Source of the DNA: a virus
Length of the DNA: 39,374 nt
Reading direction: 5' to 3' (one strand)
Virus genome (UHGV): UHGV-0391889
Every line of letters begins with the position of its first letter. The stretch's first letter is position 1. Positions 8,314-11,081 of this stretch are shown one piece after another. A program made the translations under genes and the position numbers. Under the pieces are notes generated by a model. That model made no database searches and was not told the origin of the DNA. It saw only the letters and a list, made by a program, of their open reading frames with translations.

Positions 8314-8703
8314 TTAGGAGGATTTTTTCTGTTGCCTGCTTCTTAGATATTTTTCCACATACTCATCAAGCTCTTGAAGACGGATTTCGAACAGATCAAT
8401 CATGCGTGCTTGTTCTGATCCCGGGAGCTGATTAAACAGCTCTAGCATTTTTTTCTGGTTATCATTTAACCATGAGTACGTGTTTTCCTGTTCACCGAAC
8501 ATTAATTCTGCGGGGGAAATGCCTAGTACTTGGCCGAGGATGATCGCATCCTCAGCCCCCACACTCCTGGTGCCAGCTTCGTAGTTAGCAATACGAGAAG
8601 AACCTGACCAACCACATAGTTTTGCCAGGTTTCCCATACTTAATCCTCGATTTAGGCGAGTGGCTTTTAGGCGCTCGCCTATTTGTTCTGCAATCGTTTT
8701 CAT
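8314..8703 (-). CDS. CI-like phage repressor, HTH XRE family
   Basis: 129 aa from MKTIAEQIGERLK...; HTH segment LSMGNLAKLCGWSGSSRIANYE; divergent from a Cro-like gene; the longer track ORF 8314-8808 would run across the operator region. Confidence 0.8.
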   Translation of the reverse strand: MKTIAEQIGERLKATRLNRGLSMGNLAKLCGWSGSSRIANYEAGTRSVGAEDAIILGQVLGISPAELMFGEQENTYSWLNDNQKKMLELFNQLPGSEQARMIDLFEIRLQELDEYVEKYLRSRQQKKSS

Positions 8704-8797
8704 AGTTCCGATTTTATCACGATGTGTGAAATTGGCGGTACTCACGTATCTGTAGTTGATCTCGCTCACGAAATGTGAATAATAGAGACAGGAGGTA
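8704..8797. promoter_or_regulatory. Divergent immunity-region promoters with three operator-like TCAC-N5-GTGA sites
   Basis: TCACgatgtGTGA at 8717-8729, TCACgtatcTGTA at 8742-8754, TCACgaaatGTGA at 8766-8778, spaced about 24-25 bp, between the repressor and cro-like starts. Confidence 0.55.
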
Positions 8798-9043
8798 ATG
8801 ATGAACAAAATTTCAACATATCGAAAACAGCTTGGGTTGTCTCAAAGACAACTTGCTGTTCAGTTAGGGTGGATACAAAGCCGACTGGCAAATTACGAAG
8901 CAAATTTTCGTACTCCTGGGCTAGAAGAGTGCAGAAAAATTGTTTCCACCCTTAATCGGCTTGGTGCTCATTGTGGACTTGACGATGTATTCCCCCCAGA
9001 CGGTAAGCATAGCGAAAACAGCATAGGAGCGGTTGATTCATGA
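8798..9043 (+). CDS. Cro/YdaS-like HTH regulator
   Basis: 81 aa with HTH (LGLSQRQLAVQLGWIQSRLANYE); GGAGG RBS; divergent from the repressor. Confidence 0.7.
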   Translation: MMNKISTYRKQLGLSQRQLAVQLGWIQSRLANYEANFRTPGLEECRKIVSTLNRLGAHCGLDDVFPPDGKHSENSIGAVDS

Positions 9044-9462
9044 AAATCAGGCATGAGCATATCGAATCAGTGTTGTTGGCCCTGGCAGCCGAAAAAGGGC
9101 AGGCGTGGGTCGCTAACGCAATTACTGAAGAATATCTGCGCCAGGGGGGCGGCGAATTGCCCCTTGTACCAGGCAAGGACTGGAACAATCAGCAGAATAT
9201 CTATCACCGTTGGTTGAAAGGTGAAACGAAAGCGCAAAGGGAAAAAATTCAGAAACTGATCCCTGCGGTTCTGGCAATTCTTCCGCGCGAGCTGCGTCAC
9301 CGACTCTGTATCTTCGATACCCTGGAACGCCGTGCATTACTGGCGGCGCAGGAAGCGTTGAGTACGGCAATTGATGCGCATGATGATGCAGTCCAGGCCG
9401 TTTACCGGAAAGCACATTTCAGCGGTGGTGGGTCGCCCGGCGATTCTGTCGTAGTGCATTGA
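9040..9462 (+). CDS. ydaT: YdaT-like protein (CII-like regulator / reported toxin)
   Basis: 140 aa, near-identical to recalled Rac YdaT (MKI.HEHIESVL.ALAAEKGQAWVANAITEEYLRQGGGELPLVPGKDW...). Confidence 0.8.
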   Translation: MKIRHEHIESVLLALAAEKGQAWVANAITEEYLRQGGGELPLVPGKDWNNQQNIYHRWLKGETKAQREKIQKLIPAVLAILPRELRHRLCIFDTLERRALLAAQEALSTAIDAHDDAVQAVYRKAHFSGGGSPGDSVVVH

Positions 9463-9507
9463 TTGAAATTAATCGTGCCGGATTGTTTTGTTCGGTATCA
9501 GTTAAAT

Positions 9508-9948
9508 GTAACGCTGCGAGCGTTACAAGGTGAAAACAAATGGCTTCAAACTGGATAAAGCTCGAGGTTATTACGCCGGATAAGCCGGAAATATTCAGGC
9601 TTGCTGAGATTCTGAATATTGATCCAGATGCCGCATTAGGGAAGGTTATTCGCTTCTGGGCATGGGCGGATCAACAAATGATAGACGGTAATGCAGATTG
9701 TAACGCTCGCGGCGTTACAAAAAGTGCAATAGATCGCATCACTTTTATGGCTGGTTTTGCTGATGCGTTAATTCAGGTTGGATGGCTGGTCGAAAATGAC
9801 GTTGGGCTTTCTCTACCTAACTTTGAACGCCATAACGGAAAAAGCTCTAAAAAACGGGCGGTTACAAACGAGCGAGTTACAAAAATACGTGAACTGAAAC
9901 GAAAAGGTAACGCTGCCGGCGTTACACAAACGGATCAAAAAGCGTTAC
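9508..9948. repeat. Iteron-like palindromes GTAACGC-N5-GCGTTAC (candidate replication origin)
   Basis: Near-perfect 19-bp palindromes at 9508-9526, 9700-9718 and 9907-9925, plus GTTAC half-sites at 9861, 9876 and 9944; mostly inside the initiator gene, as for lambda ori inside O. Confidence 0.55.
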
Positions 9949-10328
9949 CAGAGGAAGAGGAAGAGGAAGATCTAAATACTGATCTCCCCCTAAATCCCCC
10001 TCGCCAAAAACGAGCGTCTAAAAAATTCGAGCCGGAGGCTATTGAGCTGCCCGATTGGTTGCCGGAAACACTCTGGCATGAGTGGGTCCGGTTCAGACAG
10101 GCATTGCGAAAACCGATTCGAACGGAGCAGGGCGCTAACGGGGCGATACGGGAGCTGGAAAAATTCCGCCAGCAGGGTTTTTCACCTGAGCAGGTGATTC
10201 GACACAGCATCGCCAATGAATACCAGGGCCTGTTCGCGCCGAAAGGTGTTCGACCTGAGACGTTACTCCGACAGGTTAACACCGTCTCGTCACCGGATAG
10301 TGCGATCCCGCCAGGCTTCAGGGGGTAA
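9540..10328 (+). CDS. Replication initiator, YdaU-like (phage O-like, DUF1376-type)
   Basis: 262 aa with an acidic linker; precedes a DnaC-like loader; contains the iteron-like repeats. Confidence 0.75.
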   Translation: MASNWIKLEVITPDKPEIFRLAEILNIDPDAALGKVIRFWAWADQQMIDGNADCNARGVTKSAIDRITFMAGFADALIQVGWLVENDVGLSLPNFERHNGKSSKKRAVTNERVTKIRELKRKGNAAGVTQTDQKALPEEEEEEDLNTDLPLNPPRQKRASKKFEPEAIELPDWLPETLWHEWVRFRQALRKPIRTEQGANGAIRELEKFRQQGFSPEQVIRHSIANEYQGLFAPKGVRPETLLRQVNTVSSPDSAIPPGFRG

Positions 10329-10334
10329 CTGATC

Positions 10335-11081
10335 ATGAAAAATATTGCGACAGGCGGCGTTCTTGAACGTATCCGCAGGCTGGCTCCGCCACATGTAACC
10401 GCGCCATTCAGAACGGTAGCGGAGTGGCGCGAGTGGCAACTTGCTGAAGGCCAGAAACGTAGCGAGGAGATCAACCGCCTGAATCGCCAATTGCGGGTGG
10501 AAAAAATTCTGAATCGCTCAGGCATCCAGCCGTTGCACCGTAAATGCTCGTTTGCGAATTACCGGGTGCAGAACGACGGTCAGCGATACGCGTTGAGCCA
10601 GGCGAAATCTATCGCTGATGAACTGATGACCGGGTGTACAAATTTTGCGTTCAGCGGAAAACCTGGTACTGGAAAAAACCATCTGGCGGCGGCTATCGGG
10701 AATCGCCTGCTGAAAGATGGTCAGACAGTGATTGTGGTTACCGTGGCTGATGTCATGAGTGCTCTACACGCCAGCTATGACGACGGGCAATCAGGCGAAA
10801 AATTTTTGCGGGAACTGTGCCAAGTGGATCTGCTGGTTCTTGATGAAATTGGCATTCAGCGCGAGACAAAAAACGAGCAGGTGGTGCTGCACCAGATTGT
10901 TGATCGCCGGACAGCGTCGATGCGCAGCGTGGGGATGCTGACAAACCTGAACTATGAGGCCATGAAAACATTGCTCGGCGAGAGGATTATGGATCGCATG
11001 ACCATGAACGGCGGGCGATGGGTGAATTTTAACTGGGAGAGCTGGCGTCCGAATGTTGGTCAGCCAGGAATTGAGAAGTAA
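10335..11081 (+). CDS. DnaC/IstB-like AAA+ helicase loader
   Basis: Walker [16 protein letters not shown] and Walker B LLVLDEIG motifs. Confidence 0.85.

What the first reader, a model, noticed from the sequence alone, without database searches (positions are those of the whole stretch)
9508..9948. Array of GTAACGC-N5-GCGTTAC palindromes in and just before the replication initiator gene
Three near-perfect 19-bp palindromes (9508-9526, 9700-9718, 9907-9925) and at least three further GTTAC half-sites fall within about 440 bp, mostly inside the ydaU-like gene. This mirrors lambda, where the ori iterons lie inside O. The coding sequence at these sites repeats a short A-G-V-T peptide motif, consistent with DNA repeats constraining the protein.
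Basis: seen in the sequence. Interest (0 to 1): 0.5.

Follow-up and report, generated by a model that had tools for sequence, protein, structure and literature searches.

The report
Replication origin inside phage initiator gene
The three palindromes are real, deeply conserved DNA sites that most likely form the replication origin of this Rac-like prophage, embedded in its own initiator gene next to a previously undescribed, nucleotide-conserved polypurine tract found in related phages across several bacterial phyla.

Summary
Confirmed and extended. Three perfect GTAACGC-N5-GCGTTAC palindromes lie at 9508-9526, 9700-9718 and 9907-9925 (0.12 expected by chance). Homologous initiator genes from Enterobacterales, Pseudomonas, Xanthomonas, Burkholderiales, Planctomycetota and Verrucomicrobiota carry the same two intragenic palindromes at the same gene offsets. 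Arms are invariant and spacers free. Synonymous codons are frozen (GTT 61/63, GGT 53/54), and site 3 is read in different frames in different phages. So selection acts on the DNA, not the peptide. Where the half-site changes (GTCAC, GTTGC, GTCCGC), two residues of a basic helix of the initiator (T109, V113) change with it, which points to the initiator as the binder. A last half-site (9942-9949) abuts a polypurine tract (9950-9970). Outside the enterics this tract is a near-invariant (GAGAA)4-5 read in all three frames, with Arg coded AGA 85/86 times. It is the likely opening or loading site. The protein is a mosaic: an N-terminal domain with generic winged-helix resemblance and no Pfam family, plus a DnaT-like C-terminal domain shared with K-12 YdaU. 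A DnaC-like loader follows. K-12 Rac carries a different N-domain with its own iterons. No binding or replication experiment exists, so origin function is inferred. This is a new variant of the "origin inside the initiator gene" kind.

The parts
9508..9526 (.). Site 1: perfect dyad GTAACGC-TGCGA-GCGTTAC, intergenic, ending 14 nt before the initiator ATG
   Evidence: An equivalent site lies at -32 to -44 in Enterobacterales relatives only: 11 of 86 non-redundant loci. Among 59 close relatives the arms have 1 variable column and the spacer has 4 of 5.
9540..10328 (+). Replication initiator gene (262 aa). It has an N-terminal DNA-binding domain of an unnamed family, a disordered linker, and a DnaT-like C-terminal domain.
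   Evidence: phrog_2509 'replication initiation protein', E=1e-88. No Pfam hit even at E<=10. AF2 model, mean pLDDT 76. The N-domain family has 6,637 50%-identity cluster representatives at E<=1e-3.
9549..9839 (+). N-domain core (aa 4-100) with generic winged-helix resemblance
9688..9694 (.). Degenerate extra left half-site GTAATGC, 12 bp upstream of site 2. It reads GTAACGC in some close relatives and sits in a 12-nt insertion relative to other homologues.
   Evidence: 4-aa insertion CNAR; L001 has GTAACGC at 1376.
9700..9718 (.). Site 2: perfect dyad GTAACGC-TCGCG-GCGTTAC. It encodes aa 54-60, a low-confidence loop of the N-domain.
   Evidence: A homologous site lies at gene offset 148-160 in 70 of 86 non-redundant loci. 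Codon freeze at this site: GGT 53/54, AAC 63/63, GTT 61/63. The loop at aa 52-56 has pLDDT below 50.
9840..9911 (+). Coding region of the long basic helix (aa 101-124, KSSKKRAVTNERVTKIRELKRKGN). This is the proposed DNA-reading element. T109 and V113 co-vary with the half-site.
9861..9881 (.). Two GTTACA half-site-like words (9861-9866, 9876-9881) in direct orientation. They are specific to this lineage and their function is uncertain.
   Evidence: Absent from most homologues. 4 of 16 columns vary among close relatives.
9907..9925 (.). Site 3: perfect dyad GTAACGC-TGCCG-GCGTTAC. It encodes aa 123-129 in the disordered linker.
   Evidence: A homologous site lies at offset 337-412 in 62 of 86 loci. 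It is read as GNAAGVT here but as KVTLAAL in L002-L005.
9942..9949 (.). Terminal half-site GCGTTACC, flush against the polypurine tract
   Evidence: It changes with the dyads in relatives: GCGTGACC in L167, GCGCAACC in L139, GCGGACC in epsilon15.
9950..9970 (+). Polypurine tract AGAGGAAGAGGAAGAGGAAGA, purine-rich on the coding strand. Candidate strand-opening or helicase-loading element.
   Evidence: In non-enteric relatives it is AGAGAAGAGAAGAGAAGAGAAGA, read in frames 0/2/1 = 27/6/3. Arg is coded AGA 85/86 times. Among E. coli relatives it has 2-5 GAGGAA units.
9971..10000 (.). Short A/T-rich patch followed by a CCCCC-TAAAT-CCCCC repeat. This is the mosaic junction where homology to K-12 ydaU begins. 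Its role is uncertain.
10047..10325 (+). C-terminal domain (aa 170-262), homologous to the C-terminal domain of E. coli DnaT. The tail ...PDSxIPPGFRG is shared.
   Evidence: PDB 2RU8 E=1.9e-5, 9ZBT E=5.3e-5. NCBIfam DnaT tail. 88% nt identity to K-12 ydaU.
10335..11081 (+). DnaC-like helicase loader (YdaV-like), the presumed partner of the initiator
   Evidence: Pfam IstB_IS21 6.8e-20; NCBIfam PRK12377 3e-153 and DnaC 2e-91; phrog_50.

Best explanation
The palindromes are binding sites for dimers of the initiator encoded by the same gene. Together with a terminal half-site and the adjacent polypurine tract they form the phage's origin of replication.

Proposed sequence of events:
- Transcription from the early rightward operon produces the initiator.
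- Its N-terminal domain, through the basic helix at aa 101-124 (T109 and V113 near the A/T of GTAAC), binds GTAACGC-N5-GCGTTAC at sites 1-3. A further monomer binds the half-site GCGTTACC.
- The duplex opens at or next to the abutting polypurine tract.
- The DnaT-like C-terminal domain recruits host DnaB through the phage DnaC-like loader encoded next door.

What is shown: the sites exist, are under DNA-level selection, co-vary with initiator residues, and move with the N-domain as a cassette.

What is inferred: that the initiator binds them, that replication starts here, that the tract is where strands open, and that the C-domain hands off DnaB-DnaC.
For: (1) Three perfect sites against 0.12 expected.

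(2) The same dyads lie at the same gene offsets in relatives with 40-70% amino-acid identity, from Klebsiella, Enterobacter, Xanthomonas, Ralstonia and Pseudomonas phages and from genomes of Planctomycetota, Verrucomicrobiota and others. Of 86 non-redundant loci, 70 have site A, 62 have site B and 58 have the tract.

(3) Selection is at the DNA level.
- Among 115 distinct sites there are 87 distinct spacers but 83 arms reading GTAACGC.
- Synonymous codons are frozen: GGT 53/54 against 25% elsewhere, GTT 61/63 against 33%.
- Site 3 is read in another frame in L002-L005.
- Among 59 close relatives, arms vary in 5 of 42 columns and spacers in 11 of 15.

(4) Protein and DNA co-vary.
- GTAAC goes with R-A-L-T-x-x-R-V.
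- GTCAC goes with R-K or R-Q, at 3-4 separate places in a rough NJ tree (L008 clade, L137, L167, L168).
- GTTGC goes with R-M.
- GTCCGC (epsilon15 clade) goes with Q-D...R-K.
- Both arms and the terminal half-site change together.
- N to H (AAC to CAC) in the left arm is matched by a synonymous GTT to GTG in the right arm.

(5) The N-domain is the only constant partner. C-terminal halves differ (a DnaT Pfam domain in some, none detected in others) and so do the neighbouring genes.

(6) The sites fall in codons for a low-confidence loop and the disordered linker.

(7) The cassette from site 1 to the tract (about 9468-9966) is replaced in K-12 Rac by a DUF1376 N-domain with its own iterons at the equivalent place.

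(8) The C-domain is homologous to DnaT. DnaT acts in loading DnaB-DnaC (PMC13220808). A DnaC-like gene follows.
Against: - No experiment exists: no binding, footprint, replicon or origin-mapping data for this module were found.
- There is no classical AT-rich unwinding element. GC is 0.40-0.50 across 9825-10000.
- The dyads are 189-279 bp apart with no fixed helical phase, unlike compact iteron arrays.
- A Verrucomicrobial clade keeps only half-sites, and some Pseudomonas prophages lack site B and the tract.
- The reading-helix assignment rests on covariation and a model whose helix has pLDDT of only 51-70.
- A (GAGAA)n repeat yields cyclic permutations of the same peptide (EKRRE) in every frame, so the 'three frames' argument for the tract is weaker than it looks. 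The AGA codon bias and the exact nucleotide pattern are the stronger evidence.
Confidence: 0.7

Rival explanations
1. The initiator does bind the sites, but they act as autoregulatory operators or roadblocks that limit its own expression, and the true origin lies elsewhere.
For: Site 1 ends 14 nt before the ATG and directly abuts the Shine-Dalgarno-like AAGGTGA. Many initiators repress their own genes (general knowledge).
Against: No promoter-like site lies near site 1; the only one in 8700-10400 is at 8756-8783. The most conserved sites are intragenic. Site 1 exists only in Enterobacterales. Autoregulation does not explain the fixed junction between the terminal half-site and the conserved polypurine tract. 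K-12 Rac has iterons at the equivalent linker position.
Confidence: 0.1
2. The palindromes work as hairpins in the mRNA (controlling translation, processing or stability) or in single-stranded DNA (a primosome assembly signal), not as duplex binding sites.
For: Each site folds into a stable hairpin of -10.9 to -15.4 kcal/mol, z -2.4 to -3.0. Complementarity is maintained when the arms change. The C-domain is DnaT-like.
Against: The arm sequence itself is invariant across phyla instead of drifting through compensatory pairs: 83 of 115 arms read GTAACGC. Of 82 mismatches only 8 are G.T wobble. Unpaired half-sites at spacings of one helical turn, and the terminal half-site, co-vary with the dyads but cannot form hairpins. 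The arm variants track amino-acid changes in the initiator. No Rfam family matches.
Confidence: 0.07
3. The sites are recognised by another factor (a host protein, repressor, methyltransferase or packaging enzyme) rather than by the initiator.
For: Some relatives encode a C5-methyltransferase immediately upstream. No binding data exist.
Against: Hosts span several phyla and the neighbouring genes differ; only the N-domain is constant. Half-site variants correlate with initiator residues. There are no DnaA boxes in the region.
Confidence: 0.05
4. The repeats are a by-product of a repeated peptide motif (xNAxGVT) or of chance.
For: G50, N51, A52 and V59 are nearly invariant residues.
Against: Chance is excluded. 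Synonymous positions are frozen. Site 3 encodes different peptides in different frames. In the epsilon15 clade the first dyad sits at a different place in the gene, offset 65. Site 1 is non-coding.
Confidence: 0.03

Closest known systems
Phage lambda ori / O protein (ori-lambda inside gene O, partner P)
   Same: The cis sites lie inside the initiator's own gene, around the region coding the linker between an N-terminal DNA-binding domain and a C-terminal recruiting domain. The sites are about 19 bp with dyad symmetry. The N-domain plus sites exchange as a cassette between lambdoid phages, while the C-domain matches the loader. A helicase-loader gene follows. The region lies in the early rightward operon behind cro/cII-like genes.
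   Different: There is no detectable homology to the O N-domain (no Pfam Phage_rep_O hit). There are 2-3 dyads 190-280 bp apart plus half-sites, not four tight iterons. There is no AT-rich block but a sequence-conserved polypurine tract. The C-domain is DnaT-like and the partner is DnaC-like, not P.
E. coli K-12 Rac replication module (ydaU-ydaV, origin named oriJ in the literature)
   Same: The same prophage type and gene order (repressor, cro-like, ydaT, initiator, ydaV, ydaW). The C-terminal domain of the initiator and ydaV are homologous (88% nt identity from window 9967 on).
   Different: K-12 YdaU has a DUF1376 N-domain. Instead of GTAACGC dyads it carries 4-5 copies of (A/C)AGATGTTCAAACA in its linker (L171 2357-2463). 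I could not retrieve the published fine location of oriJ.
SPP1 G38P / oriL and other 'replisome organiser' initiators whose binding boxes lie in their own gene (from my own knowledge, not tested here)
   Same: An initiator with an N-terminal DNA-binding domain that binds repeats inside its own coding sequence and recruits a helicase-loader pair.
   Different: No sequence relationship was found. Box sequences, layout and hosts differ.
Bacterial oriC basal unwinding system (DnaA box abutting DnaA-trio repeats) and the DnaD recognition element (PMC10201434 appeared in the listing; details are from my own knowledge)
   Same: A last duplex binding box sits flush against a short-period repeat on one strand, where opening begins. 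Here the half-site abuts (GAGAA)n with a fixed 0-1 nt junction.
   Different: The proteins are unrelated and the repeat period is 5 (or 6), not 3. No evidence yet shows that the tract is bound as single-stranded DNA. This is an analogy only.
E. coli DnaT (replication-restart primosome)
   Same: The C-terminal domain (aa 170-262) aligns with DnaT residues 92-179, including the near-identical tail PDSxIPPGFRG. DnaT promotes DnaB-DnaC loading (PMC13220808).
   Different: DnaT has no origin-binding N-domain and acts after PriA-PriB at forks. Here the domain is fused to a sequence-specific origin binder.

Membership tests
Lambda-type origin (ori inside initiator gene) | Repeated initiator-binding sites located within the initiator's coding sequence | tested here: met
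   Sites 2 and 3 and the terminal half-site lie inside ORF 9540-10328 and are conserved in homologues.
Lambda-type origin (ori inside initiator gene) | Initiator N-domain homologous to lambda O (Pfam Phage_rep_O) | tested here: not met
   No Pfam hit at E<=10. PHROG places the protein in phrog_2509. Only residues 100-236 match an 'O-like' PHROG.
Lambda-type origin (ori inside initiator gene) | Compact array of four or more iterons at a spacing of about 20 bp | tested here: not met
   The dyads are 192 and 207 bp apart here and 189-279 bp apart in relatives. Only half-sites occur at 11-15 bp spacing near site 3.
Lambda-type origin (ori inside initiator gene) | Adjacent AT-rich unwinding region | tested here: not met
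   GC is 0.40-0.50 over 9825-10000. A polypurine tract with strong A-over-T skew is found instead.
Lambda-type origin (ori inside initiator gene) | Initiator binds the repeats and replication starts there | not testable with these tools
   Only indirect support from protein-DNA covariation.
YdaU family (DUF1376) / K-12 Rac origin | DUF1376 N-terminal domain | tested here: not met
   No Pfam hit. K-12 ydaU matches only window 9967-10330.
YdaU family (DUF1376) / K-12 Rac origin | Shared C-terminal domain and YdaV-type loader | tested here: met
   88% nt identity over the C-terminal 364 nt. YdaV-like: PRK12377, 3e-153.
YdaU family (DUF1376) / K-12 Rac origin | Same repeat sequence as the K-12 module | tested here: not met
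   K-12 has GATGTTCAAACA repeats and no GTAACGC dyads.
DnaT-domain proteins | Sequence homology to the DnaT C-terminal domain | tested here: met
   PDB 2RU8 E=1.9e-5 and 9ZBT E=5.3e-5 over aa 170-262. The Pfam DnaT model itself does not hit this protein but does hit relatives L003, L009, L010 and L125.
Intrinsic terminator / known structured RNA | GC-rich hairpin followed by a U-run, or a match to an Rfam family | tested here: not met
   Only a minus-strand terminator-like hit at site 3, within the number expected by chance, and its T-run is not conserved in homologues. No Rfam match.
DnaA-dependent origin | DnaA boxes in the origin region | tested here: not met
   No TTATCCACA (up to 1 mismatch) between 8783 and 14668.

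The most novel reading that the evidence does not exclude
This would be a previously undescribed origin design that spans several bacterial phyla. Its parts are two dyad sites, a terminal half-site, and a flush (GAGAA)4-5 polypurine tract that is conserved at the nucleotide level. The tract would be the sequence-specific strand-opening or helicase-loading element. It might be read as single-stranded DNA or exploited through an R-loop formed by the initiator's own purine-rich transcript, analogous to DnaA-trios. Initiator specificity would be set by about two residues (T109 and V113), so that origin specificity could be predicted and re-engineered from sequence.
Probability: 0.4. Interest if true: 0.75.

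Novelty: new variant of a known kind. Interest (0 to 1): 0.62.

Why it matters
Lambdoid replication modules are textbook material, but only a few types of origin and initiator have been dissected. This module occurs in about 680 of 5,426 complete E. coli genomes, in epsilon15-like podophages, in many Pseudomonas, Xanthomonas and Ralstonia phages, and in prophages of Planctomycetota and Verrucomicrobiota. Its N-domain family has thousands of 50%-identity clusters and no Pfam model.

If the reading is right, it provides four things:
- a ready-made, testable map of a new origin class;
- a simple protein-DNA recognition code (V to K switches A to C in the half-site);
- a conserved polypurine element whose role in opening DNA is unknown and could show how initiators without AAA+ domains melt origins;
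- an explanation of why Rac-type prophages exchange the first two-thirds of the initiator gene as a cassette.

It also gives annotators a way to call origins and initiator specificity in prophages.

Tried and rejected
- **Chance:** rejected.
- **Peptide-motif explanation:** rejected by the codon and reading-frame tests.
- **Classical AT-rich unwinding element:** none found.
- **DnaA boxes:** none near the sites.
- **Promoter at site 1:** none.
- **Terminator:** only a non-conserved minus-strand hit.
- **Rfam:** nothing.
- **Pfam for the N-domain:** nothing even at E<=10.
- **PDB by sequence for the whole-protein profile:** nothing.
- **Literature:** searches for oriJ, ydaU/ydaV, the epsilon15 origin, DnaT-like phage initiators, DUF1376, iterons in prophages, and the literal sequences found no description of these sites or of the tract. 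The fine map of oriJ could not be retrieved.
- **Locus search with the variant alignment A3:** failed because it had no conserved stretch. It was replaced by single-protein scans.
- **First viral scan:** returned only near-identical E. coli relatives. These served for the within-lineage polymorphism test, not for diversity.
- **Plasmid search:** found only two phage-like circular elements and no small plasmid that would have shown a minimal replicon.
- **Helical phasing of the dyads:** no fixed phase.

Full report
**Observation.** The window contains three exact copies of GTAACGC-N5-GCGTTAC at 9508-9526, 9700-9718 and 9907-9925. Even with two mismatches allowed, dinucleotide-preserving shuffles give a mean of 0.12 matches, and none of 100 reaches three. 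GCGTTAC occurs 14 times in the window against 4.0 expected, half of them within 9508-9948. GTTAC/GTAAC occurs 9 times in those 441 bp against about one expected from the rest of the window. The further half-sites are at 9861, 9876 and 9944. Site 1 is intergenic and ends 14 nt before the ATG at 9540. Sites 2 and 3 are in the same frame of ORF 9540-10328 and encode CNARGVT and GNAAGVT.

**Context.**
- The window is a Rac-like lambdoid prophage of E. coli, 93-95% identical to phage vB_EcoS-666R9 and to 'phage Rac' MN652886.
- The gene order is repressor, cro-like HTH, ydaT/cII-like, the 262-aa ORF, a DnaC-like loader (10335-11081), then DUF1627 and DUF977 genes.
- The 262-aa protein belongs to phrog_2509 'replication initiation protein' (1e-88) but has no Pfam family even at E<=10.
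- It is a mosaic. K-12 ydaU (DUF1376) matches only window 9967-10330 (88% nt).
- The C-terminal domain (aa 170-262) is homologous to the C-terminal domain of E. coli DnaT, including the tail PDSxIPPGFRG (PDB 2RU8, E=1.9e-5).
- The N-terminal 125 aa define a large family: 6,637 representatives of 50%-identity clusters at E<=1e-3 and 4,144 at 1e-10.
- About 680 of 5,426 complete E. coli genomes carry the full module.

**The sites are conserved at the DNA level.**
- Phage homologues sharing only the N-domain carry the same dyad twice at the same gene offsets (about 148-160 and 346-412). These are Klebsiella ST11-OXA245phi3.2, Enterobacter BUCT554, E. coli ZX5 and TL-2011b, Xanthomonas Olaya, Ralstonia QkW1 and Pseudomonas VW-6S, at 40-70% amino-acid identity.
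- A scan of one genome per species found the same in Enterobacterales, Pseudomonas, Burkholderiales, Planctomycetota, Verrucomicrobiota and others.
- Of 86 non-redundant loci, 70 have site A, 62 have site B, 58 have a purine tract of at least 14 nt, and 47 have all three. The upstream site occurs only in 11 loci, all enteric.
- Among 115 distinct site sequences, 83 left arms read GTAACGC while the five spacer bases take 87 different forms. Only the first and last spacer bases are biased, which extends the consensus to GTAACGCTnnnAGCGTTAC.
- At site A the synonymous positions are frozen: GGT 53/54 (25% elsewhere in the same genes), AAC 63/63, GCT 52/63 (22%), GTT 61/63 (33%).
- Site 3 is read as G-N-A-A-G-V-T here but as K-V-T-L-A-A-L in L002-L005. 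That is the same DNA in another frame.
- In the epsilon15 clade the first dyad sits elsewhere in the gene, at offset 65.
- Within 59 distinct close relatives, arms vary in 5 of 42 columns (minor-allele count 6), spacers vary in 11 of 15 (56), and the region as a whole in 22% of columns.

**Extended anatomy.**
- Half-sites flank the dyads at about one helical turn. The distance from site B to the tract is 13 nt in 24 loci and 24 nt in 7, including this window.
- A last half-site, GCGTTACC (9942-9949), is flush against a polypurine tract (9950-9970, AGAGGAAGAGGAAGAGGAAGA).
- Outside the enterics the tract is almost invariant, AGAGAAGAGAAGAGAAGAGAAGA. It has the highest information content of the whole region and is read in frames 0/2/1 in 27/6/3 distinct sequences.
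- Arg in the tract is coded AGA 85/86 times, against 7% elsewhere in the same genes, many of which come from GC-rich hosts.
- A 5-nt repeat gives cyclic permutations of one peptide in any frame, so the frame argument alone is weak. The codon bias and the exact nucleotide pattern are the real evidence for DNA-level (or RNA-level) selection.
- When the dyads change specificity, the terminal half-site changes with them but the tract does not: GCGTGACC-AGAGAAG in L167, GCGCAACC-AGAGAAG in L139, GCGGACC-AGAGAAG in epsilon15.
- In E. coli relatives the tract varies by whole GAGGAA units, from 2 to 5.
- The region has no AT-rich block (GC 0.40-0.50) but a strong A-over-T skew.

**Who binds.**
- The only component common to all loci is the N-domain. 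C-terminal halves differ (a DnaT Pfam domain in L003, L009, L010 and L125; none detected in others) and so do the neighbouring genes.
- The half-site co-varies with two residues of a conserved basic segment, R106-A-V/L-T109-x-x-R112-V113:
  - GTAAC goes with T...V in all cases.
  - GTCAC goes with D/S/G/A...K or Q (the Vibrio phage clade L008/L177/L178/L119, plus L137, L167 and L168).
  - GTTGC goes with A...M (L139).
  - GTCCGC goes with D...K (epsilon15 clade).
- In a rough neighbour-joining tree the GTCAC proteins sit at three or four separate places, two of them nested among GTAAC proteins. This suggests repeated co-switching.
- In the GTCAC lineages the left-arm change is non-synonymous (Asn to His), while the matching right-arm change is synonymous (GTT to GTG).
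- The AF2 model (mean pLDDT 76) shows a helical N-domain (aa 4-100) with two short strand segments at about aa 84-91, then a long basic helix (101-124), a disordered linker (125-150) and a helical C-domain.
- Site 2 encodes a low-confidence loop (52-56). Site 3 and the tract encode the linker. So the DNA elements sit where the protein tolerates them.

**Cassette structure.** Homology to K-12 Rac starts right after the tract, at about 9967. In K-12 the equivalent linker region of the DUF1376-type YdaU carries its own repeats, 4-5 copies of (A/C)AGATGTTCAAACA (L171 2357-2463). The ydaT gene upstream is again shared. The segment 9468-9966 therefore behaves as an exchangeable unit of 'specificity domain plus cognate sites', as in lambdoid O/ori.

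**Most likely mechanism (inferred).**
- Initiator dimers occupy the dyads and a monomer occupies the terminal half-site.
- The duplex opens at or beside the polypurine tract. This might be aided by transcription through the gene, since the transcript is the purine strand.
- The DnaT-like C-domain brings in DnaB through the DnaC-like loader. DnaT's known role is to promote DnaB-DnaC loading in the restart primosome (PMC13220808).
- I put 0.7 on 'initiator-bound origin' and about 0.4 on the tract being the specific opening or loading element.

**Rivals.**
- Autoregulatory operators only (0.10). There is no nearby promoter, and this does not explain the tract.
- RNA or ssDNA hairpins (0.07). The hairpins are stable. 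However, the arm sequence is invariant rather than compensatory, only 8 of 82 mismatches are wobble pairs, unpaired half-sites co-vary with the dyads, and the variants track the protein.
- Another binding factor (0.05).
- Peptide motif or chance (0.03).

**Comparison and novelty.**
- The module works like lambda ori/O and like other initiators whose sites lie in their own gene.
- It is not a member of the lambda O family, of the DUF1376/YdaU N-domain family, or of DnaA-dependent origins.
- It shares the C-domain and loader with K-12 Rac.
- I found no description of these sites, of the N-domain family, or of the tract in the searchable literature. That library lacks most subscription-journal papers, including the classic oriJ work.
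- I classify it as a new variant of a known kind.

**Caveats.**
- All evidence is comparative.
- Loci are phylogenetically related, so the counts are not independent events.
- The tree is a quick NJ tree.
- The reading-helix region is only moderately confident in the model.
- Some relatives lack site B and the tract or keep only half-sites.

Noticed in passing
window 9950-9970 (and L006, L007, L009, L010, L109, L113, L119, L139, L167 and others at gene offset about 375-400): A polypurine tract lies flush with the last half-site. In non-enteric relatives it is the near-invariant AGAGAAGAGAAGAGAAGAGAAGA, read in three frames with Arg coded AGA 85/86 times. In E. coli relatives it is (GAGGAA)n with 2-5 units.
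   Followed up: yes
L171 (E. coli BW25113) 2357-2463, inside K-12 ydaU: K-12 Rac ydaU (DUF1376 type) carries its own repeats, 4-5 copies of (A/C)AGATGTTCAAACA, partly inverted. They sit at the linker position equivalent to the sites studied here and are probably the K-12 Rac origin repeats.
   Followed up: partly
window 9986-10000: CCCCC-TAAAT-CCCCC repeat (coding PLNPP) just after the tract, at the mosaic junction with K-12 ydaU. Similar C-runs, often followed by AAGGGG, or CT-rich runs (CCTCTCTCTGCGC) follow the tract in many relatives. Pyrimidine runs of 9 nt or more occur in 26% of loci against 3% of control windows. It is unclear whether this is a DNA-level or a protein-level feature.
   Followed up: partly
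window 10047-10325: The initiator's C-terminal domain is a DnaT homologue with a near-identical C-terminal tail (PDSxIPPGFRG). The YdaU-type C-domain is therefore a phage copy of the restart-primosome protein domain.
   Followed up: partly
whole window; cluster at 37685-37995: GTTAC/GTAAC is over-represented throughout the window (94 against 51 expected). A local cluster of 8 lies inside a 399-aa ORF (37160-38359). These lack the GCGTTAC context and look unrelated to the origin sites.
   Followed up: partly
L122, L145, L151, L155, L159, L163, L164 (Verrucomicrobiota incl. Akkermansia and Prosthecobacter): A clade of N-domain homologues (MRRPWIKIEV...) keeps single GTTAC/GTAAC half-sites at conserved offsets (162, 286, 369, about -55) but has no full dyads and no long tract. 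This may be a divergent origin layout.
   Followed up: no
L124, L130, L141, L143, L144, L147, L152, L165 (Pseudomonas prophages): These keep site A (GTAACGC...GCGTTAG) but lack the polypurine tract. Most also lack a clean site B. They may be decayed prophages or a recombinant layout.
   Followed up: no
L259 (Pusillimonas sp. T7-7 41-kb 'plasmid') and L260 (E. coli pE16EC1016-8, 52 kb): The only PLSDB records with this N-domain are phage-like circular elements with cII, NinB and Rha genes nearby. They may be phage-plasmids or excised phage genomes that replicate with this module.
   Followed up: partly
window 9907-9925, minus strand: Site 3 followed by CTTTTCGTTT scores as a terminator-like site on the minus strand. 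The T-run is absent from homologues.
   Followed up: yes
window 9699-9710 versus other homologues (alignment A1, columns about 54-58): This lineage has a 12-nt insertion (coding CNAR or similar) that duplicates the left half-site of site 2. Other enterics (L094-L104) show the same duplication.
   Followed up: partly
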